A stretch of 64,000 bases of DNA from a virus. Positions 4,591 through 19,764 of this stretch are shown here, one piece after another. Numbering within the stretch: the first letter of the stretch is position 1; every line of letters starts with the position of its first letter. A model generated the notes under the pieces. The model worked only from the letters and a program-made list of their open reading frames with translations. It was not told where the DNA came from and did not search any database. A program made the translations under genes and the position numbers. The stretch is from the IMG/VR virus record IMGVR_UViG_3300025012_000042, positions 48,821 to 112,820 of that record; one strand, 5' to 3'.

Positions 4591-6126
4591 ATGTTAATTA
4601 GTAAAACAGTAATAATTAAATGGCATAATAAGACTAAAAAATGGTATGAGAATAAAGGTTACATATATACTCACAATGGTGACGAATTTGAAGTTAAAGT
4701 GGAAGATTTACAAGATGGATCTCACGCATTGGTAGATGTGCAATGTGACGAATGTGGAGAAATATTAAAGGGAAAGAAATGGCAAAGTTACAAAAGACAC
4801 GTGAAAGAAGATGGTAAATATTATTGTAGTCCATGTGCATCACGATTATATGGGGGAGAAATAACCAGGAAAATAAAACTGTCAAAAAGTAAATCATTTA
4901 AACAATGGTGCTACTTGAATCTTTCAAAAGAATTAGCAATATGGACGTTATCTAGATGGGATTATGAATTAAATATCGATAAAGATGGTAACGTAATATT
5001 GCCTGATGATGTAAGTTACGGTTCTGACAAAGGGTATTGGTTTAAATGTCTTGATCGTCCTGAACATGGATCAGAATTAAAGAGCATTCATAGTTTTACA
5101 AATGGTCGAGAAAAAAGTATTAATTGCATTAAATGCAATTCAATTTCAATTACACATCCATTGGCTGTTAAATATTTGGCGAATCCAGAAGACGCATTAA
5201 AATATTCTCATAGTTCAATGGTTGAAGTTATTACAAAATGCCCAGAATGTGGTCATGAAAAATCAATGGATATTAACCGTTTAATAAATAAGGGGTTTAG
5301 TTGTTCTGTTTGCTCATCTGGGTATTACCCAGAAAAATTTGTATTTAACATGTTAAAACAATTAAATACAAATTTTCAAACACAATTATCTAAAAAAACA
5401 TTTAAATGGTGCGATAAATATAAATATGACAACTACATAAATAAAATAAATTGTATTATAGAAACTCACGGGATTCAACACTATGAAGATTCTACTGGTA
5501 ATTGGATGAAATTGTGTGAAGTCCAAAAAAATGACAGGAATAAAGAGGAATTGGCTAAAAACAACGATATTGAAAATTACATTGTAATTGATTGTCGTAA
5601 GTCAGATATGGAATGGATTAAAAAAAGTATTATGAATTCTGAATTACCCAAGTTGTTAGATTTTAAAGATGATGATGTAAATTGGCTAGAATGTCATGAG
5701 TATGGTTGTAAAAGCTCTGTAAAATTAGTTTGTATTGAGTGGCATGGCGAAGTTAATAATATTTTAAATATAGAAAATAAATTAAAAATAAGTAGAAGTG
5801 CGGTAATAAATTACTTGAAACAAGGAACTAAACTAGGATGGTGTATACCTCCCTACAATCCCAAGCAAGAACAAGAAAAAAGAATTGAATTAATGAAAAA
5901 GAAAATTAGTAAAAAGGTAATATGCTTAACTACAAAGGAGATATTTAATAGTATATCGGAAGCGACAATAAAAAATAATTTACGCAATAGTAGTGGTATA
6001 TCTCAATGCTGTTTAAACAAAAGGAAATCATCTGGAAAACATTTAGAAACAAATGAACCGTTAAGATGGATGTATCATGATGAGTATTTAGAAACACAAA
6101 ATCAAGAACTTCTCCCATTACAATAA
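4591..6126 (+). CDS. multi-Zn-ribbon PD-(D/E)XK-type putative homing endonuclease with NUMOD-like C-terminus
   Basis: Repeated CxxC; YDNYINKINCIIETHGIQHY nuclease-like motif; KKVICLTTKEIFNSISEA C-terminal motif. Confidence 0.65.
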   Translation: MLISKTVIIKWHNKTKKWYENKGYIYTHNGDEFEVKVEDLQDGSHALVDVQCDECGEILKGKKWQSYKRHVKEDGKYYCSPCASRLYGGEITRKIKLSKSKSFKQWCYLNLSKELAIWTLSRWDYELNIDKDGNVILPDDVSYGSDKGYWFKCLDRPEHGSELKSIHSFTNGREKSINCIKCNSISITHPLAVKYLANPEDALKYSHSSMVEVITKCPECGHEKSMDINRLINKGFSCSVCSSGYYPEKFVFNMLKQLNTNFQTQLSKKTFKWCDKYKYDNYINKINCIIETHGIQHYEDSTGNWMKLCEVQKNDRNKEELAKNNDIENYIVIDCRKSDMEWIKKSIMNSELPKLLDFKDDDVNWLECHEYGCKSSVKLVCIEWHGEVNNILNIENKLKISRSAVINYLKQGTKLGWCIPPYNPKQEQEKRIELMKKKISKKVICLTTKEIFNSISEATIKNNLRNSSGISQCCLNKRKSSGKHLETNEPLRWMYHDEYLETQNQELLPLQ

Positions 6127-6863
6127 TGATAATTAAAGTAAGCACTTTCTCCGGAAACAAAATCTCTAAGTATTTTCTTTACAAAACCAAAAGGATTCTT
6201 AATATGGAATTTTGCATTGAATAATGTATCTAAAGCACTTTTTAATTGATCTGCATTAGCATTGACCTCTCTTAATATTTTAGTTACAGTAATTGCAAAA
6301 TCTGAATCTGGGTCTATCCGAGAATCTCCAAGAGTTTTTATGATAGACCAATCATTTTCTTGATTCCAAAATTCTTCTTTTACAGGTTCATTTTCTGATT
6401 TAACCATACATACATCTTTAAATATTGTTGTATTAGGTGTAATGATAGGGACATCTAGGGAAACTTCTTGGACATCTTGTCTTTTTTTATCCACAGGTTT
6501 AGAGGGGATAGGAACACCTAATAATTTATACAAAACATCTAAATCAATTCTATAGGATTTTCCATGATACCAATCTTTAGATTCAAATTGTTTAGATATT
6601 AAAACTTTCTTATTCTCTAAATCTTTAATTGCTCTTTGAATTGTCTTAGTAGATTTGTTAAGTTCTAAGGCCCACTGATCTACTGTCTTATAAACCCATA
6701 AGAAACCATCTCTATACTTGGTTGCTCTATTCATCCAATACTTCAAACGCGACAATAATTCTGCTTGGGTCTGCCCAAAAACATTAACAACAGTAGGTTG
6801 AACAACAATTGGTAATTCATTTTCTAAAATAAGATCCATCTGATTAAAACCTTCTTTCAGCAT
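6102..6863 (-). CDS. replication initiator protein (winged helix); likely start ATG at 6839
   Basis: LKYW...DGFLWVYKT..QW...KTIQRAIKDLE motif of phage/plasmid Rep proteins; internal TTATCCACA at 6487-6495; DnaA boxes upstream. Confidence 0.7.
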   Translation of the reverse strand: MLKEGFNQMDLILENELPIVVQPTVVNVFGQTQAELLSRLKYWMNRATKYRDGFLWVYKTVDQWALELNKSTKTIQRAIKDLENKKVLISKQFESKDWYHGKSYRIDLDVLYKLLGVPIPSKPVDKKRQDVQEVSLDVPIITPNTTIFKDVCMVKSENEPVKEEFWNQENDWSIIKTLGDSRIDPDSDFAITVTKILREVNANADQLKSALDTLFNAKFHIKNPFGFVKKILRDFVSGESAYFNYHYCNGRSS

Positions 6864-6889
6864 TTTTCGAATAGCAATGCTGAAGACTG

Positions 6890-7001
6890 TTTACAAATTT
6901 TTAAAATCATGCTAAAATGACTTAAAGAATTTAATACGAGTCTTCGTGGTCTCCTACTAGATGTTGTGTCGGCAAAACTTAGCATCTAATAGGAGATTTT
7001 T
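6890..7001 (+). ncRNA. putative counter-transcribed RNA 1 antisense to the rep leader (promoter included)
   Basis: TTTACA(6890)-17-TAAAAT(6913) with TG; terminator TCTCCTACTAGATG...CATCTAATAGGAGA-TTTTT (6950-7001); no ORF. Confidence 0.55.
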
Positions 7002-7036
7002 CATTACCTATTCAATTTGATTAATATTAACTCAAT

Positions 7037-7081: not shown

Positions 7082-7113
7082 GAAATCCTTAATCTAATTT
7101 ATTATCCAAAGAC

Positions 7114-7225
7114 TTGATTTTCTCACAGTCTTTGTTTATAATAATCTCAAGAACTTAAAGCTTAATGTTGGTTCAGAACATTTTGCTAGAAAACACTTGA
7201 TCTTTGCAAGAGGTCAGGTGTTTTT
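7114..7225 (+). ncRNA. putative counter-transcribed RNA 2 (promoter included)
   Basis: TTGATT(7114)-17-TATAAT(7137); terminator AAAACACTTGA...TCAGGTGTTTTT (7190-7225). Confidence 0.55.
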
Positions 7226-7267
7226 GAATTTATTGAGTTAATTTGATTTTTGATTTGTTAGAGTTAT

Positions 7268-7297
7268 ATATTCGACAGGTTGATACAATTCTCCTTC
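7268..7297 (-). promoter_or_regulatory. putative SigH promoter for rep, overlapping a 0A box
   Basis: Minus strand AGGA-18 nt-GAAT (AAGGAGAATTGTATCAACCTGTCGAATAT); TGTCGAA at 7271-7277. Confidence 0.5.
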
Positions 7298-7309
7298 TAA
7301 GAAGAAAAA

Positions 7310-7389
7310 TTATCCACAGGTAATAGTATATATCATAATTTCCTTTGTGGATAGATAGTCTTCGACAAAATTTATCCACATGTTGATAA
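7310..7389. other. putative replication origin: DnaA-box cluster
   Basis: TTATCCACA at 7310-7318 and 7372-7380; one-mismatch boxes TGTGGATAG 7346-7354 and TGTTGATAA 7381-7389; TTCGACA at 7361-7367. Confidence 0.65.
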
Positions 7390-7412
7390 GTGTTCAGGTC
7401 GGACAATAAAAC

Positions 7413-7461: not shown

Positions 7462-7463
7462 AA

Positions 7464-7763
7464 CTATTTCCTATTAGATTCAATCATATCTGCTAAAAGT
7501 TGCACTCTTTTACTTGCTTCTTTCTTTCCTATACTCTGTTCCCATTCATCATAGGTAGTATTATCTAAATCTAATCCCATTATTTTTCTAAACATTTCAT
7601 GGAGACATTCTGTTAATAAACCACTAACATCTCGATCTGTTTTTTCGGCTACTTCAAACAATACCTTCATTTCTAAACTATCAGCAGATAACATAAATTC
7701 AGGAAAATCATTGTTTTCGCAATGTACAGGTATGAATTTATACGGTCTACTTTTTAAATCCAC
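7464..7763 (-). CDS. hypothetical protein
   Basis: RBS AAGGAG, GTG start. Confidence 0.6.
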   Translation of the reverse strand: MDLKSRPYKFIPVHCENNDFPEFMLSADSLEMKVLFEVAEKTDRDVSGLLTECLHEMFRKIMGLDLDNTTYDEWEQSIGKKEASKRVQLLADMIESNRK

Positions 7764-7824: not shown

Positions 7825-8646
7825 TCACCTAACATTCACTGGCAACCATATTTTCTCCTTAACCTCTATTCTTTCAATTTCTCTTTTCATCTCATTAATC
7901 CTATTATCGCATTCATCTTTCATTTCTTGTCTCATTACCCTTAATTCCAATACATGACTTTCTCTCAATTCACTAATTTCCTTAATTCTATCTTGTTTTA
8001 ACTCAACTAATTGTCCTTCTAAAAACACCGATCTATTCTCTGATTCTTTTAATTGAAGTTGCAAATATTTATTAGAGTCTTCCATCTCGCCGATAGAAAG
8101 TTCCAATTCATCTACCGACCCAATTCTTTTCTTCATCTCATCATTTTCTAATCTTAATGTTTCTATTAAATAATTTGAGTTATTATGTCCGGCCTCTAAT
8201 TCAATATTCCTTTTGGATAAAGTCTCCGACTTATCTTCTGCTTCTTTTTTAGCTTTATCAGAATCTTTTTTGCTATTTTCAGCAATATCAATTCTTTCTC
8301 TTAGAGAATCTAAAGTGGTTTTAAAATCATTTGTTAATGTTTGAACTGTCTCCATATGGAATCTTTTCTGATCAGCTTCACTCCTGGTAATCTCAGTAAA
8401 CATTTGAACTATGCGTTCTACATGCTCTTTCATTTTCAACATGTTTGGAGTTATAAGTTCGGATATTCCACCCGATTCTGATTCTAATTGATCTTTCTTT
8501 AATCTGATTACATCAAGCAATAAGTCTTTTGATGTTAAACCTGTGCGGGTTTGAAGTGAGGCCCATTCATTTTTACCATCTTCGTTGTCTAATCTGATTG
8601 AAAGGGAGGATGGAGATGGTTTTCTAGTATCTTCTGATTCATTCAT
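7825..8646 (-). CDS. coiled-coil protein with putative N-terminal DNA-binding domain (KfrA-like)
   Basis: SLSIRL ribbon-helix-helix-like start, long heptad-rich region; lies between rep and parM. Confidence 0.5.
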   Translation of the reverse strand: MNESEDTRKPSPSSLSIRLDNEDGKNEWASLQTRTGLTSKDLLLDVIRLKKDQLESESGGISELITPNMLKMKEHVERIVQMFTEITRSEADQKRFHMETVQTLTNDFKTTLDSLRERIDIAENSKKDSDKAKKEAEDKSETLSKRNIELEAGHNNSNYLIETLRLENDEMKKRIGSVDELELSIGEMEDSNKYLQLQLKESENRSVFLEGQLVELKQDRIKEISELRESHVLELRVMRQEMKDECDNRINEMKREIERIEVKEKIWLPVNVR

Positions 8647-8676
8647 GATTTGGTGCCTCCTTTGAGATTATGATAA

Positions 8677-8773
8677 TGTATACATTTTAGGTAGTTATAA
8701 TGGTACGTATACACATGTATACACGTAAACTTTTGTATACATTGATTATAGCATAAAATGGTAAGGTGAGCAA
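8677..8773 (-). promoter_or_regulatory. promoter (TTGCTC-17-TATAAT) with a TGTATACA palindrome array
   Basis: TGTATACA at 8677, 8716 and 8734; CGTATACA at 8706; all downstream of the promoter. Confidence 0.55.
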
Positions 8774-8789
8774 GATGTATAAAAATGTG

Positions 8790-8858
8790 TTGCAAAGTAT
8801 GGGGTATGACTATATAATATCCATAAAGGTAAATACCCCATACTTTATAGTGGGGTAT
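8790..8858 (+). promoter_or_regulatory. parM promoter with parC/operator repeats
   Basis: TTGCAA-17-TATAAT; AAAGTATGGGGTAT (8794-8807), its perfect inverse (8833-8846) and TGGGGTAT (8851-8858). Confidence 0.7.
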
Positions 8859-8878: not shown

Positions 8879-9730
8879 ATGGCAATTCAGATCATTCCAA
8901 TCGACTGTGGACGCAACACTGTAAAGTTATTAAACAATCAATCATTTAGATCTGTGGTTGGAGATTGGCATCATAGGGAAATATCTGATAATGAAGAATA
9001 TGAAGTAATTATCAACGACAAAGAAAAACATTTTGTAGGACAATTGGCACTCGATGAGTCGTTTGCCCCAATCGAGATGAGTACAACATCAAAGATTCAT
9101 GAACAGACAAGAGTGCTTTTTTTAACTGGGGTCGGCCTATCCTTAGAGGAAGATGACAGTGATTTATATATTTGCACAGGTGTACCAGTTGATCAGTTCA
9201 ATGCCACAACAAAATCTGCATTGGAAAATTTATTATTTGGCAAATACGATATTCAAATTAATGGGGAACATAAAAAATTCTGTATAAACAATCTAAATAT
9301 TATACCTGAATCTGTTGCCAGCTTTCAATATGCATTATCGAAAGATGAAAATTTATCAATTGGTAAGAAAAGAATAATTGACTTAGGAAGTTTAACCGTG
9401 AATTATAGTTCTATGAACGGTAGTAAGTTTGTCACAAGAGATTCTGGAACACTGGCTTTCGGTTCCATTAAACTAAAAGGGAATCAAATTGATAATTCTC
9501 AATATGTTGGAAAGATTGTAGCTGAACTTAGTCAGAGATTCACAGACTACGAAATCTCTGATCGAGTTTTATTAACTGGTGGAGGAGCATTGCAATTTGG
9601 TGATTTATTTAAGAAATATTATCCTAATTGCTCAGTTTTAGATAATTGTGTCTATGCTAATGTAGAAGGTTATCACAGGATGGGCGTGAAAAAATGGGCA
9701 AAAGCACAGGCGAACTCACAGGTCGAGTAA
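8879..9730 (+). CDS. parM: ParM/StbA-family actin-like partition ATPase
   Basis: IDCGRNTVK, TGVPV, IIPES, IIDLGSLTVN and LLTGGGA actin-fold motifs. Confidence 0.9.
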   Translation: MAIQIIPIDCGRNTVKLLNNQSFRSVVGDWHHREISDNEEYEVIINDKEKHFVGQLALDESFAPIEMSTTSKIHEQTRVLFLTGVGLSLEEDDSDLYICTGVPVDQFNATTKSALENLLFGKYDIQINGEHKKFCINNLNIIPESVASFQYALSKDENLSIGKKRIIDLGSLTVNYSSMNGSKFVTRDSGTLAFGSIKLKGNQIDNSQYVGKIVAELSQRFTDYEISDRVLLTGGGALQFGDLFKKYYPNCSVLDNCVYANVEGYHRMGVKKWAKAQANSQVE

Positions 9731-9945
9731 AAAGAAAAGGTGTTTATTTTAATTTAGACGATGAAGATGAATTATTACTTTATGAAAAGGCAAACGAGAT
9801 TAGAAATTTTAGTAAATGGGTTAAGAAGCAATTAGTTAATGATGGGGTCGTAGTTAAAGAGGGAATAAAAGAGACTGTAGTAGAGCATATTAAGGTTGAA
9901 AGAAGGAGAGTAGAAAAGGATGAACTTGACGATATGATGATTTAA
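9694..9945 (+). CDS. ParR-like centromere-binding adaptor
   Basis: Small ORF overlapping the parM end; KGVYFNL...NFSKWVK RHH-like region; acidic tail. Confidence 0.7.
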   Translation: MGKSTGELTGRVKRKGVYFNLDDEDELLLYEKANEIRNFSKWVKKQLVNDGVVVKEGIKETVVEHIKVERRRVEKDELDDMMI

Positions 9946-11319: not shown

Positions 11320-11910
11320 ATGAAAAAAACAAAAGGAAAACTAATTCCCAAACTAAGCAAAAAACTATTATTTTCGCTTTTATTATTAACTTTATTGTCA
11401 ATACCTCATCCTGCCTCAGCTAAAGGAGAATTGACCACAGAAGAAGCAAAAAGCATTTTAAACATTATTATTAATAAAACTTATATATTGCTTACTTCTT
11501 CCTCTAATTATATCTATCCAGTAGATGGAATAATCTCAAGTCCTTATGGCACAAGAGAGTCTTCATTAGATGGATTTCATTATGGAATTGATATTGCGGT
11601 AGTAGAAAATACCCCTGTTCATGCTTCAAATTTTGGCATAGTAATTAAAGCAGAATTTAATGAAATGATTGGAAATGTTGTGTATATCAATCATTCTGAT
11701 GGAAAACAGACTGTGTACGCTCACAACAATAAATTATTAGTCAATGTTGGAGATAAAGTAAATCAAAATGATGTAATTGCTTTTTCTGGAAATACAGGAT
11801 TACTGTCCAGAGGACCACATGTACATTTTGAAATTCGTACTAATAATGGAACTAATTCATTAAATCCAATGAATTATTTACCTGCAAAACAAAATAAACC
11901 CCTCAAATGA
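11320..11910 (+). CDS. secreted M23-family peptidoglycan peptidase
   Basis: Signal peptide ending PASA; HYGID, YAHN and GPHVHFE motifs. Confidence 0.9.
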   Translation: MKKTKGKLIPKLSKKLLFSLLLLTLLSIPHPASAKGELTTEEAKSILNIIINKTYILLTSSSNYIYPVDGIISSPYGTRESSLDGFHYGIDIAVVENTPVHASNFGIVIKAEFNEMIGNVVYINHSDGKQTVYAHNNKLLVNVGDKVNQNDVIAFSGNTGLLSRGPHVHFEIRTNNGTNSLNPMNYLPAKQNKPLK

Positions 11911-12283: not shown

Positions 12284-12535
12284 TTGAATGAATTTTTAAG
12301 TTGGTCAACAAAGATTTGTTTGGCTATGACTGCTCTTGGTGGAGGATTGGCTATGCTCATGATAGTATGGTCTGGGATTATGGATATAATTGGAAATGGG
12401 CAATGGAAGGCACAAGCCAAGGAATTAAAGGAATCGGTAATTAGAGGATGTATTACTATAATCGTTGGGCCTTGGGTTATAAAAATTCTTTGGACTATAC
12501 TCAAAGGAATTTTTCCAACACTTCCTACATTTTAA
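12284..12535 (+). CDS. VirB2/TrbC-like pilin (start revised to TTG 12284)
   Basis: Two hydrophobic segments separated by a KAQAKELKE linker; first gene of the T4SS-like operon. Confidence 0.6.
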   Translation: MNEFLSWSTKICLAMTALGGGLAMLMIVWSGIMDIIGNGQWKAQAKELKESVIRGCITIIVGPWVIKILWTILKGIFPTLPTF

Positions 12536-12564: not shown

Positions 12565-13599
12565 ATGCTTACAGTTGGAGAAGTTGGAGACGCAATTATT
12601 GATTTATTTATTAAACCACCATCTCCTGAAACTGTTGATAAAGTAAATGGGGCATTATTTGATGTCCCTACTCCAGAAACGATAGAGAGTGTCAATAATG
12701 TTTTATTTAATGCGCCTACACCACATGATATTTCTACGGTTAATGGGAGATTAGAACATTTTATTACTGATTCATTAGTACAAAACTTTGCACAATTATT
12801 TCTTCATACACCTAATGTACTATTAGAAAATCCAACAATATTAGTTTTACACTCATTCTTTTTAAAAATAATTATTGCTTTTTCATTCGCAGGAATAGTA
12901 TATTTTGGAATTATGCAAGTCATGAACAAAAGTAGTAAATATCAGACAAATGAATATATTGTAAAAATAGCTCAATCGATGGTAATTATAAATATAGTAA
13001 TTATAGCACTACCAACACTAATAGAAACAACAAACAAATTAACTATAGCAATTCTTTCAATAGGTGGAACAGAAGCAGAGATGATAAAGGCTCTAACTCC
13101 TCAGTACGGTTTAGGCTTAATCATATTCACACTAATATTTGCTTTAATACTAATCAATCTAATATGGTATTACTTTATGAGAATGATTTCTATTATGTTT
13201 TTAGTTGCTACAGCACCCATATTCTTTTTTCTATGGTTATTTCCTAAACATCAAAATATGAGACAAATATGGATTGATGAGCTATTGGATAACTTACAAG
13301 CACCTATTATTCATGCGATTATTATGGTCATTTGGTTAGGTTTTGAGTCATCTATTTCAAAATCAAATCACGGAGGACTTTATCACATTATGCTTTGTAT
13401 AGCAGCAGGTTCATTTATGATTCAAGCACCTAGTTATGTGCAACAATGGATTAGTTATGGACACCAAGCACCTACTCCTATTCAAATGTTCAAAGAAATT
13501 AAGTATGGATTAAGTCCTAGAAAACTTATCGGTTATGGAGGATTTGGAAGAATGGGAGGAAACATGTTTAGAGGAAGAGGAACTACAAGAAGGAGGTAA
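12565..13599 (+). CDS. VirB6/TrbL-like polytopic conjugation membrane protein (start revised)
   Basis: Several TM segments; ATAPIFFFLWLFP..W; Gly-rich tail. Confidence 0.65.
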   Translation: MLTVGEVGDAIIDLFIKPPSPETVDKVNGALFDVPTPETIESVNNVLFNAPTPHDISTVNGRLEHFITDSLVQNFAQLFLHTPNVLLENPTILVLHSFFLKIIIAFSFAGIVYFGIMQVMNKSSKYQTNEYIVKIAQSMVIINIVIIALPTLIETTNKLTIAILSIGGTEAEMIKALTPQYGLGLIIFTLIFALILINLIWYYFMRMISIMFLVATAPIFFFLWLFPKHQNMRQIWIDELLDNLQAPIIHAIIMVIWLGFESSISKSNHGGLYHIMLCIAAGSFMIQAPSYVQQWISYGHQAPTPIQMFKEIKYGLSPRKLIGYGGFGRMGGNMFRGRGTTRRR

Positions 13600-13603: not shown

Positions 13604-13951
13604 ATGTTTAATAATGAGATGTTTGAAACTAATCAAATCATTGAAATGAAGGATGAAATATTCTATGGACTTACAGGCAAACAAACAATTTATTTAATAT
13701 CTGGGATAGTTTTAAGTTTATCTATATTTAATACTGCATTACCTATTATTGCAAAACTATTCATTCTACCAAATATCGGTATTCCTACTGCAATTCTAGT
13801 TAAAACTGATATTGATCAAGGAATAGTTTCTTTCTTCAAATTTAAGTGGAGAGGGGTGACAAAACAAAATGTTACAATACAATCTTTACCCAAAAGCAAA
13901 TTATCTTTTAGCAACAAAAGAAGAACAAACACTACTCCGATCCAAGTTTAA
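13604..13951 (+). CDS. PrgI/TcpE-like (VirB3-equivalent) membrane protein (start revised)
   Basis: IFYGLTGKQ motif plus two TM segments; directly upstream of the VirB4-like gene. Confidence 0.65.
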   Translation: MFNNEMFETNQIIEMKDEIFYGLTGKQTIYLISGIVLSLSIFNTALPIIAKLFILPNIGIPTAILVKTDIDQGIVSFFKFKWRGVTKQNVTIQSLPKSKLSFSNKRRTNTTPIQV

Positions 13952-15374
13952 ATATCTATTAAATTCTCTAAATGAACCGTCTAGAATCATTTGTAGAACT
14001 GACTCAAATAAATTGAATAAAGACACACAAATCAATGAATCAATTTATCATTTAATAACTAATGCTGATATTTATGAGAATTTAAGTAATTCTGGAATAG
14101 ATTATACTCAAAATAAATGTCCTACATCAAATATTCAAGTAAAAGAACATCGAAAATATATTGCTATTACTGAAAACAATGAAAAATATTTTGCTAAATC
14201 AATCAAGGTTATCCAATTTCCACAAATGCTTTCTACTGGATTCATAAACAACTTAATGATTTCTGACACTGAAATTGCCCTTACAATCTTTCCATTGCCA
14301 CAAGAAGAGGCTGTGAAGACAGTAAAAAAGAGAATTGATACTAATGAAGCAAATGTAAATTGGAAGGTCGTAAAGAACCCTAATCAAGAGTTTTATGTAG
14401 AAGATGAAATTGTACTAAAACTTCAAAAGACTATGGTTGATCTTATGGGTAATGAAGAAAAACTTTGTATGGTTGGATTATATATCTTAATTAAAGGACA
14501 AACACTTGAACAATTGGAAACAAAAGCAAAACAAATATCAATGCTTTTGGATGGAATGCAAATTAGGTTTAAATTCGCTAATTATGAACATTTTAATTGT
14601 TTTAAGAATTTTAGAGCATATAAAGAAATTGATTATGTAAATGAGTTAAAAGTATTTTTGACAAGTGTAATTAGTAATTTTTATCCATTTGTTAGATATG
14701 TATCAGGGGATGGAGTTATTATCGGATATGATTATCAAAATTATCAATTGATTAAAATTAATTTTTCAGAACTCTTCAATCTGTCATGGTTTATTTTCGG
14801 AATTTCAGGAAGTGGAAAGTCATTTGCTGTAAAGAGCATTGTAAAGAAAATATCTAGTCATAAGAAGATTTATATTCTTGATATTACTGGTGAATATGCC
14901 AAACTAAAATCAAAGAATATTATCATAATATCTAAAGATTTTGAGAAATTTCTATTATACACTGATTTTAAAGATTGCATGATTATAATTGATGAAGCAT
15001 GGGATATTTTAAAAACTGATAAAGTTATTAAAAGAGTAGTAGCAATAGCGAAAGGATATAGAAAGAGGGGAGTAGGTGTTTTAGTCTGCACTCAAAACAT
15101 TGCTGATACAAGTAAAGAGGATATTGAATTAATTATTAAAAACTGTGCTAATACTTTAATTCTTCATTTGACTTCACTAGAACTTCAACATATTAGCGAA
15201 TACATGAATATACCTCATCATATTATTGATTATCTTTCTAGGATTGAAAAAGGACAAGGGTGGATGACCATAGGAACAAAGCAATATGCTTTTAGACCAA
15301 TATTTAGTGATGAAGATTACTTGTTATTCAATACTAATTATGAGGAAATGAAAGGGGTTGGTTATAATGGGTGA
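13869..15374 (+). CDS. virB4: VirB4-like conjugation ATPase (compact)
   Basis: FYPF, GISGSGKS, LDITGEY, IIIDEAW, RKRG and TQN motifs. Confidence 0.8.
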   Translation: MLQYNLYPKANYLLATKEEQTLLRSKFKYLLNSLNEPSRIICRTDSNKLNKDTQINESIYHLITNADIYENLSNSGIDYTQNKCPTSNIQVKEHRKYIAITENNEKYFAKSIKVIQFPQMLSTGFINNLMISDTEIALTIFPLPQEEAVKTVKKRIDTNEANVNWKVVKNPNQEFYVEDEIVLKLQKTMVDLMGNEEKLCMVGLYILIKGQTLEQLETKAKQISMLLDGMQIRFKFANYEHFNCFKNFRAYKEIDYVNELKVFLTSVISNFYPFVRYVSGDGVIIGYDYQNYQLIKINFSELFNLSWFIFGISGSGKSFAVKSIVKKISSHKKIYILDITGEYAKLKSKNIIIISKDFEKFLLYTDFKDCMIIIDEAWDILKTDKVIKRVVAIAKGYRKRGVGVLVCTQNIADTSKEDIELIIKNCANTLILHLTSLELQHISEYMNIPHHIIDYLSRIEKGQGWMTIGTKQYAFRPIFSDEDYLLFNTNYEEMKGVGYNG

Positions 15375-17064
15375 GAAACTTAGCAAGATTAAAGATTTGG
15401 CAATTAAATCAGGTAAATATTCTGCTTTATATAGTGGAAAATTTATTTTAGGTGGATTAGGTTATGCTGTTCAAATTGCTTCAAACGGAATATTAGGAAT
15501 GAGTATTCCAGATTATAAATTGCCTAATTTGAAGTTTGGTGATGATAAAACTTCATTAGGAGATAGAGTAGTTTTAACTCCTAGCAAATTTCTCCTTAAA
15601 GGAAATGGTATAGTGGTTGGTAAGGATTTTAATACAAAGAATGTAATTAGTTATCCAATAGATCATTTTGACGATCTTTGTAAACATTCTATTTATGTTG
15701 GTGCTCCTGGAAGTGGCAAATCAAATTTAGCAGAAAATGTAGCCATTCAAATATCTAAAATTAATAATTTACAAAACTTTAATACAGCAGGATTTTGTGT
15801 TATAGATGTTGCAGATGGGGCCTTGATTGATAATGTTTTATTGTCTATTCCAGAAAATAGATTAGATGATGTAGTTTTATTAGACTTCTCTAATAAAGAC
15901 TTTCTACCAGGAATTAATCTCTTAGAATTTGATGAAAAAGTAGAGAAACAATTTCCACACTTTATTCATGCTGAAATAATCTCATTCTTTAAAAAGCGAT
16001 TTGGTGAACAAATTGGTTTTGCAAGTGAGGATCTTTTATCAAACTCACTCAATGCTATTCTGAAGCAAACAGATTATCCAAAAACACTTTTAGGAATTAT
16101 TAAAATGTTAACTGAGGTAGATTATAGAGAACAAATATTAAAATCATTAAGAAAAAACAAAAGAAATGCTTCTGTTGTTAGATATTGGGATAGATTTGAA
16201 GCACAATCACCATCTGTAAAAAGAGATATCGTCAAACCTCTGTTAAACAAGGTTGGCAATCTTACTAATAACGATTATTTAAAATCTATTATATGTCAAA
16301 ACAAATCTACCATTGACTTTAGAACAATAATGGATGAAGGCAAAATTCTATTGATTAAAGCTCCTAAAGTTGCAGTTGGTAAAGTTAATATAGAAATATT
16401 AATACCACTAATCCTTTCAAAATTTTGGATATCTGCATTATCAAGATTTGATATTACTGACAAAAACCAAAGAAGACCTTTTATGCTTTTTCTTGACGAG
16501 CCACAAATGTATTTGTCAAATGAAGCAGGAATTGAAGAAATGCTAACAGAATCAAGAAAATACCGACTATGCTCACATTTTTTCTTTCAGTCTCCAGAAC
16601 AAACTCAACTTCAATCTGTCATTAGAATGATGTTAGAAGTGCATCCTCAGATTATATCATTTGCTATAGGTAGGGGTGGCGCACAGACGTTGTTTAAAGA
16701 ATTTGAAACAGGTGATGAAGAAAAAGATATGTCCATAAGATATACAATTCTTAATCTACCTAAATATCATGCTTTGTGTAGATTCTTATATAAGAATGAA
16801 AAGAGTGTATCTATTATTAAATGTGATCCTCCCACTAAACCTTTGCGAAAAAAAGTACCCGATATTATTACTGAAAATAGTCAAATGTATTTACGTTCTG
16901 TTGATGAAATTATGGAAGAAATTCTTGAATCAGATTATATCCCAGAACCAGATTTTAGTTTAATAGAGGTGAACAATAATGAACAGCAAAGATTTAATGT
17001 TGAAGAAGTTGACTTTAGGAACAAAGTTTCAAGATTTAACAAACCGAGATTTAGAGATAATTAG
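15358..17064 (+). CDS. virD4: type IV coupling protein (VirD4/TraD-like)
   Basis: HSIYVGAPGSGKS, INLLE, IDFRTIMDEGKILL, FLDEPQ, ESRKY. Confidence 0.8.
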   Translation: MVIMGEKLSKIKDLAIKSGKYSALYSGKFILGGLGYAVQIASNGILGMSIPDYKLPNLKFGDDKTSLGDRVVLTPSKFLLKGNGIVVGKDFNTKNVISYPIDHFDDLCKHSIYVGAPGSGKSNLAENVAIQISKINNLQNFNTAGFCVIDVADGALIDNVLLSIPENRLDDVVLLDFSNKDFLPGINLLEFDEKVEKQFPHFIHAEIISFFKKRFGEQIGFASEDLLSNSLNAILKQTDYPKTLLGIIKMLTEVDYREQILKSLRKNKRNASVVRYWDRFEAQSPSVKRDIVKPLLNKVGNLTNNDYLKSIICQNKSTIDFRTIMDEGKILLIKAPKVAVGKVNIEILIPLILSKFWISALSRFDITDKNQRRPFMLFLDEPQMYLSNEAGIEEMLTESRKYRLCSHFFFQSPEQTQLQSVIRMMLEVHPQIISFAIGRGGAQTLFKEFETGDEEKDMSIRYTILNLPKYHALCRFLYKNEKSVSIIKCDPPTKPLRKKVPDIITENSQMYLRSVDEIMEEILESDYIPEPDFSLIEVNNNEQQRFNVEEVDFRNKVSRFNKPRFRDN

Positions 17065-17743
17065 AGTTGTTAGAGATTTACAAATTGTTTCAAGGAGCCA
17101 ACTTCAAATTATGTTCTTTCCTACAAAGCAAAGTTTAACTATCTGTAATAGAAGATTAGCCAAAATAGAGAAATTAGGATTTATTAATAGAACTCCTATT
17201 ACTTTGAACGGTGAATCTTTAATTACTGCTGGAAAATTACTTTGTCTAGCAGGAGGTACTTATATGTCTAAATTGCCATCTGATTACACTCATCAGTTAT
17301 TGATGAATGAAATTTATGCTTTGTTATTTAGAGAGCAGAATTTGAATCGAATTATCATTAAACAATACAAACCTGAATTTGTTTATAAATTTAGGGACAA
17401 GGATGAAGGTAAGCAATATATTTTAAGGTCTGATATTTTAACTGTATTAGAGAAAAATGGAATGGATACAACTCTATTATTTGAGATAGATGCAGGAACA
17501 GAAACAAAGAAACAATTAAGAGAAAAGATTAATATTTATGAAAAAGTATCTATGAAAGTAAAGGGATTTCCTCAACTGTTTTGGTTGGCAAATGACAAGG
17601 GATTCAGAAAATTAATTAGTTTGGACAAGACTGTTAATATAGCAAAAGTAGAAGAATTGAGAGAAAATTTTTATTTATGGACAAGGTATCCTGATATGAA
17701 AAGGACAAGATTAATTCCTGATATTGTTGTTTGGAAAATTTAG
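16979..17743 (+). CDS. replication-relaxation (Replic_Relax) family relaxase
   Basis: LTNRDLEII N-terminal wHTH; HQLLMNE; LRSD; FEIDAGTET; follows the coupling protein. Confidence 0.75.
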   Translation: MNSKDLMLKKLTLGTKFQDLTNRDLEIIRVVRDLQIVSRSQLQIMFFPTKQSLTICNRRLAKIEKLGFINRTPITLNGESLITAGKLLCLAGGTYMSKLPSDYTHQLLMNEIYALLFREQNLNRIIIKQYKPEFVYKFRDKDEGKQYILRSDILTVLEKNGMDTTLLFEIDAGTETKKQLREKINIYEKVSMKVKGFPQLFWLANDKGFRKLISLDKTVNIAKVEELRENFYLWTRYPDMKRTRLIPDIVVWKI

Positions 17744-17768: not shown

Positions 17769-17933
17769 ATGGGATTATTAGGTAATCTGATTAGTAGTTT
17801 TAGCAAACCAGAAATTGATGTTGATGAATTAGTAGATTTTATAGCTGAAGGGACACATATTGACAGAGGAATTATTGAAATTATTTTAGAGGCAGAAGAT
17901 ATTTATTTGAGAGAAAAAGGGATTATATATTAG
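17769..17933 (+). CDS. 54-aa hypothetical protein
   Basis: GGTG RBS; MGLLGNL...DELVDFIAEGTHIDRGII; followed by a terminator. Confidence 0.55.
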   Translation: MGLLGNLISSFSKPEIDVDELVDFIAEGTHIDRGIIEIILEAEDIYLREKGIIY

Positions 17934-17941
17934 AGGAGTGG

Positions 17942-17970
17942 GAGTGATAGGATGTCACTCTTTTCTTTTT
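17942..17970 (+). terminator. terminator of the transfer operon
   Basis: GAGTGA-TAGGATG-TCACTC followed by TTTTCTTTTT. Confidence 0.6.
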
Positions 17971-18063
17971 AGGATTATTTTCAATAAATTTTATAAAAAC
18001 TAGCATTAAATATTTGCAATCTCATAAAATATCATATATTATGTGTGAAAGGGTTGATTTTAG

Positions 18064-19764
18064 ATGATTTTTAAATTTGATAAAGTTGGAAATATGGAAG
18101 ATGTTGGAGATGTTGAAGATACTAAATTGGAAGGAGATATTGAAATGGGTAGGAAAAGTAATAAGGATAAGGATAGGTTTTCTCGAATGGATGTTGGTGT
18201 TGTTAATTCGGTGAAAGAAGAGGTTTTAGGGATGGTAAATGAAACTAAAAGTCAGGTGGCAGTTGGATTTAATGAAATTCTAGATGATGAGGATATGGTT
18301 CAACAACATGAGATGGAATTGGTTAAAGAAATGGAATCTGAGAGTGATAAAATTTGGGATAGAGGGAGCAGAGATGGGGTTGTTGGGGATAGTGTAGGTG
18401 ATGATGGTGATGGTGAGAGTGATAAATCTGTAATGTCTGATGAAGAATTGAAGGAGAAAATGAGGGAAAGAAATATGGGTAATGCTAGTAGTTCTGGTGG
18501 GATGCCTGCGTTTGGTAGTTTGAGTGAGAGGGTTAAGATGGAGGATGAAAACAATATCAATGATTTTAGTGATGAAGATGAAACCAATGAACAAAAAAAT
18601 GAAGCTCAAAGAAAAAAGGATGAATTGGCTAAAAAAAGAGAAGCAAATAAATTGAAGAAAGAATTTAAAGATAGAGAAAAACAATTAGCAATGAAAAAAG
18701 AAAGTAACGATAAATCATGGTCGTTTGATAATATATCGGTTGTTATGAGAGATGGTATTCCTTATAAGTTTAATTTATCATTATCTGCTTTACAATTGGC
18801 AGAAATGTATGGAGTGACAGGACAAATTTATTATCAAAAAAGCATTCAAAGGGGTAGTAAAGTTAGTAAAACCAAAGGGGAAATTCCTCTTATTAATGTG
18901 AAGCACAGTAAGGATATTTTGAATTCTCTTTTAGAAAGTGAAAATGTTGATGGAGGAACCATATATTTAAATTATGCAAAAGAATACTCAACTCCATTAC
19001 AGTTTAATTCATCTGATAACACTTTATCTGGTCAATTTCCCTTATCCATAAATGACGGAGGTCACAGACTGGAATCCTGTTTGCTCTGGTATAATAAATT
19101 TCGAAAGGATATGGACTCAATTAAAGATCCTAATGATTTTTATTTTTCGGTAAGTATCTTAAATTTAGATCATGAACAGTCAGAAAATATATTTGTCGAA
19201 TTAAATTCTCTCGGACTTCCTGTTTCTAAAACTGCTGTAGCTTATCATGATGTGCGAAACATAAATAACGTTATTGCCAAAAAAGTTATGAATAATTCAT
19301 TTCTTCGTGGACGTATTGAATTATTTTCAAATAGTTTGAAAAAAACAAGCAATTGCGTAATGACATTTAATACCTTATTAAAAGGTTGTTCTATGATGTC
19401 TCCTGAAACACCTAGTCAAGTAGAAGAAGCAGGGAATTTCTTGTGTTCTTATTTTAATGAGATTATAGAATTATTTCCTAAAATATATGGCAATGTCTCA
19501 TCAGAAACAAGACAAATTGAAAAGGCCAATACGTTTATTGGCGAAGTAATGTTCATCCACGCATTGTTCGGTCTTGCAGTTGAATTACAATTTGTTGCTG
19601 ATTGGAAAGATAAACTTAAAAAATTGACACAACCAAGTAGTTTTTTGAGTCGAGATAATGACTTATGGATAAGAAATATTACTCGTAATGAAGGTAAATT
19701 AATCAATACTAGTAAAACTCAAGATTTTGTGAAGGATCAGTTATTGGCGAAGGTTATGGGTTAG
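18064..19764 (+). CDS. DGQHR/DndB-like (ParB/Srx fold) protein with acidic disordered N-terminus
   Basis: LSINDGGHRL...IFVELN motif; about 200 aa D/E-rich N-terminus; start possibly ATG 18145. Confidence 0.6.
   Translation: MIFKFDKVGNMEDVGDVEDTKLEGDIEMGRKSNKDKDRFSRMDVGVVNSVKEEVLGMVNETKSQVAVGFNEILDDEDMVQQHEMELVKEMESESDKIWDRGSRDGVVGDSVGDDGDGESDKSVMSDEELKEKMRERNMGNASSSGGMPAFGSLSERVKMEDENNINDFSDEDETNEQKNEAQRKKDELAKKREANKLKKEFKDREKQLAMKKESNDKSWSFDNISVVMRDGIPYKFNLSLSALQLAEMYGVTGQIYYQKSIQRGSKVSKTKGEIPLINVKHSKDILNSLLESENVDGGTIYLNYAKEYSTPLQFNSSDNTLSGQFPLSINDGGHRLESCLLWYNKFRKDMDSIKDPNDFYFSVSILNLDHEQSENIFVELNSLGLPVSKTAVAYHDVRNINNVIAKKVMNNSFLRGRIELFSNSLKKTSNCVMTFNTLLKGCSMMSPETPSQVEEAGNFLCSYFNEIIELFPKIYGNVSSETRQIEKANTFIGEVMFIHALFGLAVELQFVADWKDKLKKLTQPSSFLSRDNDLWIRNITRNEGKLINTSKTQDFVKDQLLAKVMG

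What the first reader, a model, noticed from the sequence alone, without database searches (positions are those of the whole stretch)
6102..19764. Candidate conjugative phage-plasmid: replicon, partition and transfer block between the two arms of a tailed-phage genome
Seen: Rep with DnaA boxes, parMR with repeats, an M23 peptidase, pilin-, VirB6-, PrgI-, VirB4- and VirD4-like genes and a Replic_Relax gene lie at the +/- strand switch, between phage nucleotide-metabolism genes and an intact-looking tail/lysis region. No integrase or att-like repeat is visible in the window. Known: plasmid prophages with partition systems exist (P1, C. botulinum c-st). Inference: this element may persist as a plasmid and spread both by virion and by conjugation, which is rarely described.
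Basis: partly seen in the sequence, partly recalled or inferred. Interest (0 to 1): 0.9.

Follow-up and report, generated by a model that had tools for sequence, protein, structure and literature searches.

The report
Phage-borne plasmid replicon plus mini-T4SS
A large uncultivated tailed phage of a low-GC Gram-positive host carries plasmid replication and partition genes next to a small, intact conjugation-type DNA-transfer operon. The same operon occurs in related phages and, distantly, in Bacillus phage G, so it is a resident phage module whose suspected role in cell-to-cell transfer is still untested.

Summary
Window 6102-19764 encodes:
- a Rep initiator beside a cluster of five DnaA boxes;
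- ParM/ParR with repeats;
- a secreted M23 peptidase;
- one operon: pilin-like, VirB6/TrbL-like, PrgI/VirB3-like, VirB4, a VirD4/TraD-family coupling ATPase and a Replic_Relax (MOBC-type) protein;
- a fast-evolving DndB-like gene.

It lies at the strand switch between a replication arm and a tail/lysis arm.

It is not a chimera or a recent insertion. M23 through Replic_Relax recur in the same order in seven independent viral contigs, six of which also carry a DndB-like gene. They are 69-99% identical in protein, with dN/dS 0.02-0.28 and no flanking repeats. One relative, rated 100% complete at 230 kb and read here, has portal and terminase genes and no integrase.

Two caveats apply. The contig is a 63%-complete fragment without head genes. 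Homologous gene sets occur in Bacillus phage G, and partly in virulent CP-51, where their function is unknown.

A conjugative phage-plasmid is therefore my leading reading (about 0.4), but it is unproven. This scan noted the same operon earlier on other DNA (e1-5390066).

The parts
6102..6863 (-). Rep: plasmid/phage-type replication initiator (DnaD/lambda-O-like, wHTH)
   Evidence: phrog_6493 7.9e-18, phrog_428 4.7e-10. No Pfam hit. 72% identical copy in L007. A divergent Rep of the same PHROGs sits at the same place in L008.
7102..7389 (.). Cluster of five DnaA boxes (two exact TTATCCACA) in the 600-bp non-coding leader of rep; candidate plasmid origin
   Evidence: About 0.1 boxes are expected in 290 bp at the shuffled-window density.
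7464..7763 (-). 99-aa ORF of unknown function
   Evidence: No family hit. No tblastn match in relatives.
7825..8646 (-). 273-aa coiled-coil protein (weak SMC-like)
   Evidence: TIGR02168 1.7e-5, far below its cut-off. 91% identical in L007.
8675..8850 (.). parC-like repeats upstream of parM: several TGTATACA(T) units and a perfect 14-nt inverted repeat, AAAGTATGGGGTAT. A 35-nt copy recurs at 10031-10065.
8879..9730 (+). ParM, actin-like partition ATPase
   Evidence: PF17989 ALP_N 4.5e-21; phrog_691 5e-47. Related to CP-51 gp96, 3.8e-9.
9694..9945 (+). ParR-like small DNA-binding adaptor (83 aa)
   Evidence: Its position overlaps the end of parM. Only weak PHROG hits of unknown function. 55% identical copy in L007. 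phmmer 1.1e-3 to the small ORF upstream of the ATPase in Bacillus phage 0105phi7-2.
10055..11305 (+). Four small ORFs: wHTH regulator, Zn-ribbon ORF, DUF7678 and an 86-aa ORF
   Evidence: phrog_17403 1.2e-5. PF24726 1.5e-18. DUF7678 is 71-88% conserved in relatives.
11320..11910 (+). Secreted or membrane-anchored M23 peptidoglycan peptidase; candidate VirB1-type wall opener
   Evidence: PF01551 3.2e-29. N-terminal hydrophobic segment at residues 16-34. 69-93% conserved directly upstream of the operon in all relatives; omega 0.13-0.16.
11937..12038 (-). Conserved 33-aa hydrophobic peptide gene (Fst/type-I-toxin-like or a small membrane subunit)
   Evidence: Kept as an ORF in the window, L007, L008 and L013 despite nucleotide changes.
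12085..12165 (.). Highly conserved non-coding stretch upstream of the operon: promoter/operator or candidate oriT
   Evidence: Alignment of four loci.
12275..12535 (+). Pilin-like (VirB2/TrbC-type) protein with two hydrophobic segments
   Evidence: PF18895 0.0027, below the cut-off. Two hydrophobic segments. Phage G gp150 2e-3. Omega 0.04-0.16.
12565..13599 (+). VirB6/TrbL-like polytopic membrane protein (ORF opens at 12448; likely start is M40)
   Evidence: Six hydrophobic segments. Atlas TrbL_3/TrbL_4 clusters at 0.93 with 211 shared features. Phage G gp153 1.9e-8. pLS20_p028 2.7e-4, below the cut-off.
13604..13951 (+). PrgI/VirB3-like protein with two hydrophobic segments (ORF opens at 13535)
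   Evidence: PF12666 2.7e-4, below the cut-off. Phage G gp154 5e-3. Complex prediction with VirB4 gave weak support: 0.35 against a best control of 0.00.
13869..15374 (+). Short VirB4-family ATPase (501 aa) with Walker A GISGSGKS and Walker B IIIDEAW
   Evidence: NF045971 1.7e-30 (106 bits; cut-off 325), VirB4_plasma 8e-29. PDB 4ag5 7e-6. Phage G gp155 4e-37. Motifs are invariant in alignment A3.
15358..17064 (+). Type IV coupling-protein-family ATPase (VirD4/TraD/TrwB-like), 568 aa, with an N-terminal helix
   Evidence: phrog_5156 2e-72. Homologues carry TrwB_AAD_bind, TraG-D_C and T4SS-DNA_transf. The profile's top PDB hits are TrwB 3e-10 and DotL 5.5e-10. AF2 pLDDT 84. VIA-align Z: 28.3 DndH-C, 27.9 VirB4, 25.2 TrwB.
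16979..17743 (+). Replic_Relax (PF13814, the MOBC class of CONJscan): wHTH plus a PD-(D/E)XK-like nuclease; candidate relaxase
   Evidence: PF13814 2e-9, 38.3 bits against a 25.3 cut-off. Invariant D152, E169, D171, K177, K178. CP-51 gp90 2.7e-8, phage G gp146 1e-4. Omega 0.02-0.08.
17769..17962 (+). 54-aa acidic ORF followed by the operon terminator (17940-17962)
   Evidence: 48-82% conserved in relatives.
18064..19764 (+). DndB-like (DGQHR/ParB-fold) protein with an acidic low-complexity N-terminal half; fast-evolving
   Evidence: PF14072 8.6e-21. Only 25-39% identical among relatives; omega 0.32-0.47.
19784..19818 (.). Bidirectional terminator at the +/- strand switch

Best explanation
**What it is.** The block is a resident, selection-maintained module of a clade of large (about 180-230 kb) uncultivated siphophages of low-GC Gram-positive hosts. 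It has two joined parts:
1. A plasmid-type maintenance region: Rep with a DnaA-box origin, ParM/ParR/parC, and possibly a small toxin-like peptide.
2. A minimal Gram-positive-type type IV secretion operon: pilin-like, VirB6, VirB3, VirB4, a VirD4/TraD-family coupling ATPase and a MOBC-type Replic_Relax nuclease. A secreted M23 wall hydrolase sits just upstream.

**Most likely mechanism (inferred, not shown).**
- The phage persists as a low-copy plasmid prophage.
- Replic_Relax nicks the phage-plasmid at an unidentified oriT.
- The coupling ATPase hands the DNA to a VirB4-energised VirB3/VirB6 channel. M23 opens the wall locally.
- The genome, or part of it, moves to a touching cell without a virion.

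The module descends from an old phage lineage of such genes, shared with Bacillus phage G. It was not recently captured from a plasmid.
For: **All core parts are present, intact and co-oriented in one operon**.
- VirB4 identity: NF045971 1.7e-30, 4ag5 7e-6.
- Coupling-protein family: homologues carry TrwB_AAD_bind, TraG-D_C and T4SS-DNA_transf. The family profile hits TrwB and DotL first in the PDB.
- Replic_Relax scores above Pfam's cut-off. PF13814 is the MOBC relaxase class, which in Firmicutes pairs with VirD4-type coupling proteins (PMC5357655).

**The module is conserved and under selection.**
- M23 through Replic_Relax are syntenic in seven viral contigs from different metagenomes; six also carry a DndB-like gene.
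- Omega is 0.02-0.28 at dS up to about 2, with no stop codons.
- The operon is 73-93% identical between G000 and G001, while polymerase, helicase and primase are 26-37% and tail genes 24-42%.

**Signs of a plasmid state.**
- Rep and ParM are replaced by divergent versions at the same site in relatives.
- The relative rated complete and read here (G001) has a portal and TerL but no integrase or resolvase.
- The polymerase is related to that of the plasmid prophage c-st.

**A link to plasmids.** A homologue of the coupling ATPase sits beside a TrbC/VirB2 gene on large C. botulinum plasmids such as pCLK.

**VirB3-VirB4 complex prediction:** weak support, score 0.35 against a best control of 0.00. 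That mark was reached by 58 of 80 solved complexes and 2 of 110 mismatched pairs, but passes at 0.60 or under came from only 7 of those 80 and from both mismatches. The runs agree in at least 58% of contacts and the partner's pLDDT is at least 58. A like complex (R388 VirB3-VirB4) is solved, so the pass may reflect that likeness.
Against: - No oriT was identified.
- No VirB8-like component was found.
- The pilin, PrgI and VirB6 labels rest on sub-threshold or indirect evidence.
- VirB4 and the coupling ATPase score far below the curated family cut-offs.
- The coupling ATPase fold cannot be told apart from VirB4, HerA or DndH.
- Homologous sets occur in phage G, and the ALP-T4CP-Replic_Relax subset occurs in CP-51, which is listed as virulent. 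A plasmid-prophage conjugation role makes little sense there.
- RefSeq labels the phage G Replic_Relax homologue 'replication initiation by nicking'.
- Authors describing Bacillus phages treat Replic_Relax and the FtsK-like ATPase as plasmid replication or segregation helpers.
- The contig is a 63% fragment with no end repeats. No repressor was found in it. Lysogeny and a plasmid state are therefore unproven.
- The host is unknown.
Confidence: 0.4

Rival explanations
1. An intracellular DNA-handling module. Replic_Relax nicks to prime or resolve replication of the episome. The membrane-anchored coupling-type ATPase, with VirB4 and the membrane proteins, moves or anchors phage DNA inside the cell or across a division or sporulation septum, for example carrying the genome into the forespore. 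ParM positions the DNA. No transfer to another cell takes place.
For: - The ALP + T4CP-like + Replic_Relax trio is conserved in CP-51. CP-51 is listed as virulent, and its DNA is trapped in host spores (PMC4113786).
- Phage G carries the full set together with many sporulation genes (PMC12484599).
- RefSeq labels phage G gp146 'replication initiation by nicking'.
- Bacillus phage papers place Replic_Relax and the FtsK-like ATPase beside partition genes.
- In this window the operon directly adjoins Rep and ParMR.
- The tblastn relatives found in the phage collection for the T4CP-like, VirB4-like and Replic_Relax-like genes are almost all phages of Bacillus, Geobacillus and related endospore-forming genera.
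Against: - A pilin-like protein, VirB6, VirB3, VirB4 and a secreted wall hydrolase make up an envelope-spanning export set. Segregation alone would not need them.
- No experimental link exists between these genes and spore entrapment.
- The host of this phage, and whether it sporulates, are unknown.
Confidence: 0.3
2. A T4SS-like envelope machine used for something other than moving the phage's own genome. Possibilities are DNA uptake or release, delivery of a protein to neighbouring cells, or exclusion of or interference with competing plasmids and phages.
For: - VirB4 also scores against the archaeal DNA-import ATPase CedB (1.7e-13), and the coupling ATPase weakly against CedD. VirB4-type machines can therefore work in import.
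- The adjacent DndB-like gene evolves fast (omega 0.32-0.47), as conflict genes often do.
- The coupling ATPase fold is as close to the defence ATPase DndH-C (Z 28.3) as to T4SS ATPases.
Against: - A MOBC-class nuclease is translationally coupled to the coupling ATPase. That arrangement is the signature of DNA-substrate processing for export (PMC5357655).
- No effector-like gene lies in the operon.
Confidence: 0.12
3. An artefact or remnant: a chimeric assembly joining a plasmid to a phage, or a recently inserted ICE or plasmid fragment that is now decaying.
For: - The record is a metagenomic contig with no end repeats, rated 63% complete.
- Read mapping could not be done.
Against: - The same junctions and gene order occur in seven contigs from different samples.
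- All genes are intact, with omega 0.02-0.28.
- No flanking direct or inverted repeats, IS ends or integrase were found.
- GC content matches the flanks: 0.28-0.33 in the block against 0.26-0.31 nearby.
- The closest homologues are phage genes, not plasmid genes.
Confidence: 0.03
4. A separate question of lifestyle: the phage is not a plasmid prophage. Rep and ParM serve lytic or pseudolysogenic replication and positioning, as actin-like proteins do in some virulent phages.
For: - CP-51, listed as virulent, also encodes an ALP related to this ParM.
- No repressor was found in the fragment.
- No circular or plasmid form has been observed.
Against: - A second, DnaA-box-dependent initiator exists beside a complete phage replisome.
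- A parC-like repeat array is present.
- Antirepressor genes are present.
- Rep/ParM cassettes are swapped between relatives.
- A repressor-like gene lies beside the block in G001.
- No integrase occurs in G001, the complete relative read here.
Confidence: 0.2

Closest known systems
Bacillus phage G gp146 and gp150-gp156 (TraC-like and TraD-like ORFs; PMC12484599)
   Same: - The same set and order: small membrane proteins, VirB6-like gp153 (2e-8), VirB3-like gp154 (5e-3), VirB4 gp155 (4e-37), coupling ATPase gp156 (2e-34).
- A Replic_Relax homologue, gp146, lies nearby (1e-4).
- The published view is that the function in phages is unknown, and the two ATPases, gp155 and gp156, were not detected in virion proteomics.
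   Different: - Phage G is a 498-kb myovirus with no known lysogeny.
- Within the 19 kb read around its T4SS-like genes, I saw no Rep, ParMR or M23 gene next to the set.
- Its coupling ATPase is 825 aa, with a roughly 370-aa N-terminal extension that is missing here.
- Identities are only about 23-27%.
ALP / T4CP-like / Replic_Relax cluster of SPO1-like and other Bacillus phages (CP-51 gp96-gp90; 0105phi7-2; Novomoskovsk, Bolokhovo, Izhevsk)
   Same: - An actin-like protein, small membrane proteins, a phrog_5156 ATPase (5e-39) and a Replic_Relax protein (3e-8) are clustered.
- In other phages a TrbC/VirB2 gene, Replic_Relax and an FtsK-like ATPase lie beside partition genes.
   Different: - No VirB4 or VirB6 was detected in those clusters.
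- CP-51 is listed as virulent.
- The authors read the genes as plasmid replication or segregation helpers, not as transfer genes.
Gram-positive conjugative T4SS of the MPF-FA/FATA type with a VirD4 coupling protein and a MOBC relaxase (pAD1/pCF10-like plasmids, CD1110-family ICEs)
   Same: - The component list matches: wall hydrolase, VirB6, VirB3/PrgI, CD1110-type VirB4, VirD4-family ATPase and a PF13814/MOBC protein.
- MOBC pairs with VirD4 in Firmicutes.
   Different: - The VirB4 here is much shorter (501 aa against a 752-position CD1110-family profile).
- No VirB8-like, adhesin or accessory genes were found.
- All scores fall below the curated cut-offs.
- No oriT is known.
- The nearest relatives are phage genes; plasmid VirB4s are only 20-25% identical over half the protein.
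Plasmid prophages of Firmicutes and P1 (C. botulinum phage c-st; B. cereus-group plasmid prophages)
   Same: - A large tailed phage with its own replisome plus a plasmid-type initiator and a partition system, and no integrase.
- The DNA polymerase III alpha is 40% identical to that of c-st.
   Different: - A tblastn search of the phage collection, which includes c-st, found no c-st match to the T4SS ATPases; P1 was not examined.
- The literature read here reports relaxase or oriT in only two P1-like phage-plasmids (PMC10879196).

Membership tests
Conjugative T4SS (CONJscan logic: relaxase + T4CP + VirB4 + MPF-type genes) | VirB4-family ATPase | tested here: met
   NF045971 1.7e-30 and VirB4_plasma 8e-29, both below their equivalog cut-offs. 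PDB VirB4 4ag5 7e-6. N-terminal domain matches plasmid CD1110 VirB4s. Walker motifs are invariant.
Conjugative T4SS (CONJscan logic: relaxase + T4CP + VirB4 + MPF-type genes) | Type IV coupling protein (VirD4/TraD/TrwB family) | tested here: met
   No direct Pfam hit. Homologues at 1e-40 to 1e-52 carry TrwB_AAD_bind, TraG-D_C and T4SS-DNA_transf. The family profile hits TrwB (3e-10) and DotL (5.5e-10) first in the PDB. The fold alone cannot separate it from VirB4, HerA or DndH.
Conjugative T4SS (CONJscan logic: relaxase + T4CP + VirB4 + MPF-type genes) | Relaxase of a recognised MOB class | tested here: met
   PF13814 at 38.3 bits, above the 25.3 cut-off. PF13814 equals MOBC in CONJscan (PMC5357655). 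Nicking activity was not tested. The AF2 model was too poor to use (pLDDT 46).
Conjugative T4SS (CONJscan logic: relaxase + T4CP + VirB4 + MPF-type genes) | Membrane channel parts VirB6 and VirB3, plus a pilin-like protein | tested here: inconclusive
   T4SS_pilin 0.0027 and PrgI 2.7e-4, both below their cut-offs. pLS20_p028 2.7e-4. Atlas TrbL clusters at 0.93. Membrane topologies fit. VirB3-VirB4 complex: weak support, 0.35 against 0.00.
Conjugative T4SS (CONJscan logic: relaxase + T4CP + VirB4 + MPF-type genes) | VirB8-like scaffold (TcpC/PrgL/ConB type) | tested here: inconclusive
   No ORF in 6-20 kb matched such a family in Pfam or PHROGs, and none of the unassigned small ORFs has a membrane anchor. 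Remote homologues could have been missed.
Conjugative T4SS (CONJscan logic: relaxase + T4CP + VirB4 + MPF-type genes) | oriT and demonstrated transfer | not testable with these tools
   The only candidate is the conserved non-coding stretch at 12085-12165. No MOBC oriT model was available.
Phage-plasmid (plasmid prophage) | Complete virion gene set on the same replicon | tested here: inconclusive
   Tail and lysis genes are present. No terminase, portal or capsid gene is on this 63% fragment. The collinear relative G001, rated complete, has TerL and a portal.
Phage-plasmid (plasmid prophage) | Plasmid replication initiator and partition system | tested here: met
   Rep with a DnaA-box cluster, ParM, a ParR-like ORF and repeats.
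Phage-plasmid (plasmid prophage) | No integration module | tested here: met
   No Phage_integrase or Resolvase match in G000 or in complete G001. G002 has one short 187-aa tyrosine recombinase frame.
Phage-plasmid (plasmid prophage) | Circular or otherwise autonomous episome in a lysogen | not testable with these tools
   No end repeats. No circular permutation seen between G001 and G002. No isolate genome carries it.
Phage-lineage T4SS-like module (phage G type) | Homology and shared order of the VirB6, VirB3, VirB4 and T4CP genes, plus a Replic_Relax gene | tested here: met
   phmmer 2e-8, 5e-3, 4e-37 and 2e-34; tblastn 1e-4 for gp146.

The most novel reading that the evidence does not exclude
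Large phages of spore-forming Firmicutes, including virulent ones such as phage G and CP-51, use a self-encoded minimal T4SS, coupling ATPase and MOBC nuclease to pass their own genome directly to neighbouring cells without virions. In the clade described here this is combined with a plasmid prophage state. The element would then be a true conjugative phage-plasmid with two horizontal routes.
Probability: 0.25. Interest if true: 0.9.

Novelty: new variant of a known kind. Interest (0 to 1): 0.6.

Why it matters
Mobile elements are sorted by how they travel: phages in capsids, plasmids by conjugation. The papers read here describe phage-plasmids as moving as viruses, and report relaxase or oriT genes in only two P1-like ones.

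This clade of phages keeps a full minimal T4SS, coupling protein and relaxase-class nuclease next to a plasmid replicon, under strong selection. If that machinery works, one element could spread both ways. Its host range would then no longer be set only by receptors.

Even if the module has another job, it is an unexplained and widespread feature of phages of Bacillus and related hosts. It can be tested in cultivable relatives such as phage G and CP-51.

Tried and rejected
**Searches that found nothing**
- Megablast of the block against the phage and plasmid collections: no match.
- Exact end repeats or inverted ends on G000 and G001: none.
- Reading across the contig ends as a circle: the last ORF closes after 3 codons, which is uninformative.
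- Circular-permutation test between G001 and G002: the first 6 kb of G001 is absent from G002, and the last 6 kb maps collinearly, so there is no sign of permutation.
- Phage_capsid Pfam model on G000, G001 and G002: no hit. The capsid gene remains unidentified.
- Host search through VirB4 and the endolysin in 185,579 species genomes: nothing.
- tRNAs in the window: none.
- HTH_3 repressor in G000: none.
- tblastn of the DndB-like protein against phages: no match.
- Flanking att or IS repeats around the block: only short AT-rich chance matches.

**Results too weak to use**
- AF2 model of Replic_Relax: pLDDT 46, unusable, so no fold search was run.
- Fold search of the coupling ATPase: it cannot separate T4CP from VirB4, HerA or DndH.
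- Word-based protein searches for Replic_Relax and VirB4: only close metagenomic relatives.
- Distant T4CP loci in viral contigs: only one (L029) showed recognisable VirB6 and Replic_Relax neighbours by simple phmmer.

Full report
**Where the window lies.** The window is the last 64 kb of a single 112,820-bp IMG/VR virus record (G000). The record is classed linear and CheckV rates it 63% complete. It has 29% GC and no terminal direct or inverted repeat.
- The left part, all on the + strand, encodes a phage replisome and nucleotide metabolism: DNA polymerase III alpha, DnaB, primase, exonuclease and ribonucleotide reductase.
- Window 20-62 kb, on the - strand, encodes lysis and tail genes: endolysin, a 1842-aa and a 2219-aa tail protein, Dit and a 1996-aa tape measure. 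Homing endonucleases and a TnpB-type gene are scattered among them.
- No terminase, portal or capsid gene is on the record.
- The polymerase places the phage among large siphoviruses: a 176-kb faecal phage, Geobacillus E3, the Lactococcus 949 group, Clostridium phage c-st and Tsamsa-like Bacillus phages.

**The observation.**
- Rep (6102-6863, - strand) matches PHROG DnaD/O-type initiators.
- Its 600-bp leader holds five DnaA boxes within 290 bp, where about 0.1 is expected.
- ParM is clear: ALP_N 4.5e-21, phrog_691 5e-47. A small overlapping ParR-like ORF follows.
- TGTATACA units and an AAAGTATGGGGTAT repeat flank the pair.
- After four small ORFs comes a secreted M23 peptidase (3e-29).
- Next is a terminator, then a conserved 33-aa hydrophobic ORF on the opposite strand, then a conserved non-coding stretch.
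- One operon follows, ending at a terminator at 17940-17962. It encodes a pilin-like protein, a VirB6-like protein, a PrgI/VirB3-like protein, VirB4, a second P-loop ATPase, Replic_Relax and a 54-aa ORF.
- A DndB-like gene and a bidirectional terminator at 19784-19818 mark the strand switch.

**How sure each label is.**
- *VirB4* is solid at family level: NCBIfam CD1110 VirB4 1.7e-30; PDB VirB4 4ag5 7e-6; the N-terminal domain matches plasmid VirB4s; the Walker motifs are invariant. It is short, at 501 aa, and scores far below the equivalog cut-offs.
- *The 568-aa ATPase* has no direct Pfam hit, but it belongs to phrog_5156 (2e-72).
  - An exhaustive HMMER search found 8022 relatives.
  - Of ten relatives scanned, seven carry one or more of TrwB_AAD_bind, TraG-D_C and T4SS-DNA_transf.
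  - A profile of 61 members hits the coupling proteins TrwB and DotL first among solved structures.
  - A good AF2 model (pLDDT 84) aligns about equally well to DndH-C, VirB4, TrwB and HerA (Z 25-28). The fold therefore confirms the superfamily but not the subfamily.
  - I accept it as a VirD4/TraD-family protein.
- *Replic_Relax* passes Pfam's cut-off. PF13814 is the MOBC relaxase class of CONJscan, which in Firmicutes goes with VirD4-type coupling proteins (PMC5357655). D152, E169, D171, K177 and K178 are invariant. Its AF2 model was unusable.
- *The pilin, PrgI and VirB6 labels* rest on sub-threshold hits, fitting membrane topology, Atlas neighbours in TrbL families and homology to phage G genes.
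- *The VirB3-VirB4 complex prediction* gave only weak support: 0.35 against a best control of 0.00. The runs agree in at least 58% of contacts and the partner's pLDDT is at least 58. The solved R388 complex may explain the pass.
- *No VirB8-like gene and no oriT* were identified.

**It is part of the phage, not an accident.**
- Seven IMG/VR contigs from different metagenomes carry M23 through Replic_Relax in the same order at 69-99% protein identity. Six of them also carry a DndB-like gene.
- Two of these contigs are 230,300 bp and 227,247 bp and are rated 100% complete.
- The first (G001) has a TerL-like gene, a portal (1e-48), tail and lysis genes, and no integrase or resolvase.
- G000 and G001 are collinear, which places the missing head genes beyond the right end of G000.
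- Between the two phages the operon is 73-93% identical. Polymerase, helicase and primase are 26-37% and tail genes 24-42%. Identity also varies gene by gene among relatives. The module is thus exchanged among phages of the clade and strongly constrained.
- Omega is 0.02-0.28 at dS up to about 2, with no stop codons.
- No att-like or IS-like repeats flank the block, and its GC content matches the flanks.
- Rep and ParM are replaced by divergent members of the same PHROG families at the same site in G001. This is what selection for plasmid compatibility would produce.

**Comparison with what is known.**
- The coupling ATPase has relatives in 121 phage records, nearly all from Bacillus and kin. 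VirB4 has one relative, in Bacillus phage G.
- In phage G the order is small membrane proteins, VirB6-like gp153, VirB3-like gp154, VirB4 gp155 and coupling ATPase gp156, with a Replic_Relax homologue (gp146) 3 kb away.
- A 2025 re-annotation of phage G calls gp155 and gp156 TraC-like and TraD-like, did not find them in virions, and states that their function in phages is entirely unknown (PMC12484599).
- CP-51, an SPO1-like phage listed as virulent whose DNA is trapped in spores, has an actin-like protein, small membrane proteins, the ATPase and a Replic_Relax protein in one cluster.
- Other Bacillus phage papers note TrbC/VirB2, Replic_Relax and an FtsK-like ATPase beside partition genes, and read them as plasmid-type functions.
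- On plasmids, the nearest ATPase homologues sit beside a TrbC/VirB2 gene on large C. botulinum and C. sporogenes plasmids such as pCLK.
- Plasmid VirB4s are only 20-25% identical over half the protein.
- The module is therefore an old phage-associated lineage of T4SS genes, not a recent capture.

**Mechanism.** The component list is the minimal Gram-positive conjugation set, and its most economical reading is export of nicked DNA to a touching cell. The components are a wall hydrolase, a pilin-like protein, VirB6, VirB3, VirB4, a coupling ATPase and a MOBC-class nuclease translationally coupled to that ATPase. With Rep, a DnaA-box origin and ParMRC beside it, and no integrase, the element would be a plasmid prophage able to move by virion and by contact. 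I rate this at about 0.4.

The main rival, at about 0.3, is that the nuclease and ATPase serve replication, segregation or septal translocation of phage DNA. That reading fits the presence of the core trio in virulent phages of spore-formers. Other envelope functions get about 0.12, and artefact or decay about 0.03. Whether the phage is temperate at all is a separate open point. The fragment has antirepressors but no recognisable repressor.

**Novelty and standing.** The papers read here describe phage-plasmids as spreading as viruses, and report relaxase or oriT genes in only two P1-like ones. T4SS-like genes have been noted in phage G and, in part, in Bacillus phages, without a known function. 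New here is a full operon joined to a plasmid replicon and conserved across a clade of uncultivated large siphophages. That makes it a new variant of a known but unexplained kind.

This scan had already noted the same operon on other DNA (e1-5390066, a roughly 237-kb phage). I reached the phage G link independently and then checked the paper that note cited.

**Limits.** The host is unknown.

Noticed in passing
window 11937-12038 (- strand): A 33-aa hydrophobic peptide gene (MFLIFGTVIGVGLMGYGAYELVDIVQQLGKLVQ) lies convergent with the M23 gene. It is conserved as an ORF in four loci despite nucleotide changes. It could be an Fst-like type I toxin for plasmid addiction or a small membrane subunit. 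A highly conserved non-coding stretch follows at 12085-12165.
   Followed up: partly
window 18064-19764: The DndB-like (DGQHR) protein has an acidic low-complexity N-terminal half. It evolves much faster than its neighbours (25-39% identity, omega 0.32-0.47) and has no tblastn match in 50,697 phage records. It may be a conflict or anti-defence gene linked to the transfer operon.
   Followed up: partly
window 8775-8809 and 10031-10065: A 35-nt sequence ending in AGTATGGGGTATGA occurs upstream of parM and again upstream of the wHTH gene. Its core also forms a perfect inverted repeat at 8794-8846. It is probably a shared operator or a second centromere-like site.
   Followed up: no
G000 versus G001: The two phages are collinear mosaics. 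Many small early genes and the T4SS operon are 70-93% identical, but the replisome (26-37%) and the tail genes (24-42%) are far more diverged.
   Followed up: partly
window 19827-21181 (- strand): Two tandem DUF7487 proteins contain 69/138-nt periodic internal repeats (20319-20851).
   Followed up: no
window 21963-22577 (- strand): A Mom-family DNA-modification gene (PF25680, 2.6e-41) lies close to the block.
   Followed up: no
window 23901-25487 (- strand): A 528-aa protein carries an AEP-TOTE primase domain (1.9e-10). It is a second primase-like gene apart from the DnaG-type primase.
   Followed up: no
window 59266-60735 (-) and G000 42876-44309 (+): Two TnpB/IS605-type genes (phrog_506, 1e-52 to 1e-54) have no adjacent TnpA. 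Many HNH or homing endonucleases interrupt the tail and replication modules.
   Followed up: no
L005 (Bacillus phage CP-51, gp96-gp90): CP-51, listed as virulent, has an actin-like protein, small membrane proteins, a 911-aa T4CP-like ATPase and a Replic_Relax-like protein in one cluster. CP-51 is known to be carried in host spores, so this is a cultivable system for testing the module.
   Followed up: partly
L028 (C. botulinum plasmid pCLK, 108.4-111.2 kb): A TrbC/VirB2 gene is directly followed by an 800-aa homologue of the coupling ATPase (25% identity). The same pair lies on many large C. botulinum and C. sporogenes plasmids that MOB-suite types as non-mobilizable.
   Followed up: no
L029 (86-kb viral contig, 5830-10158): A distant viral contig carries VirB6-like, an 800-aa T4CP-like ATPase and a Replic_Relax-like gene in a row, without a separate VirB4.
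   Followed up: no
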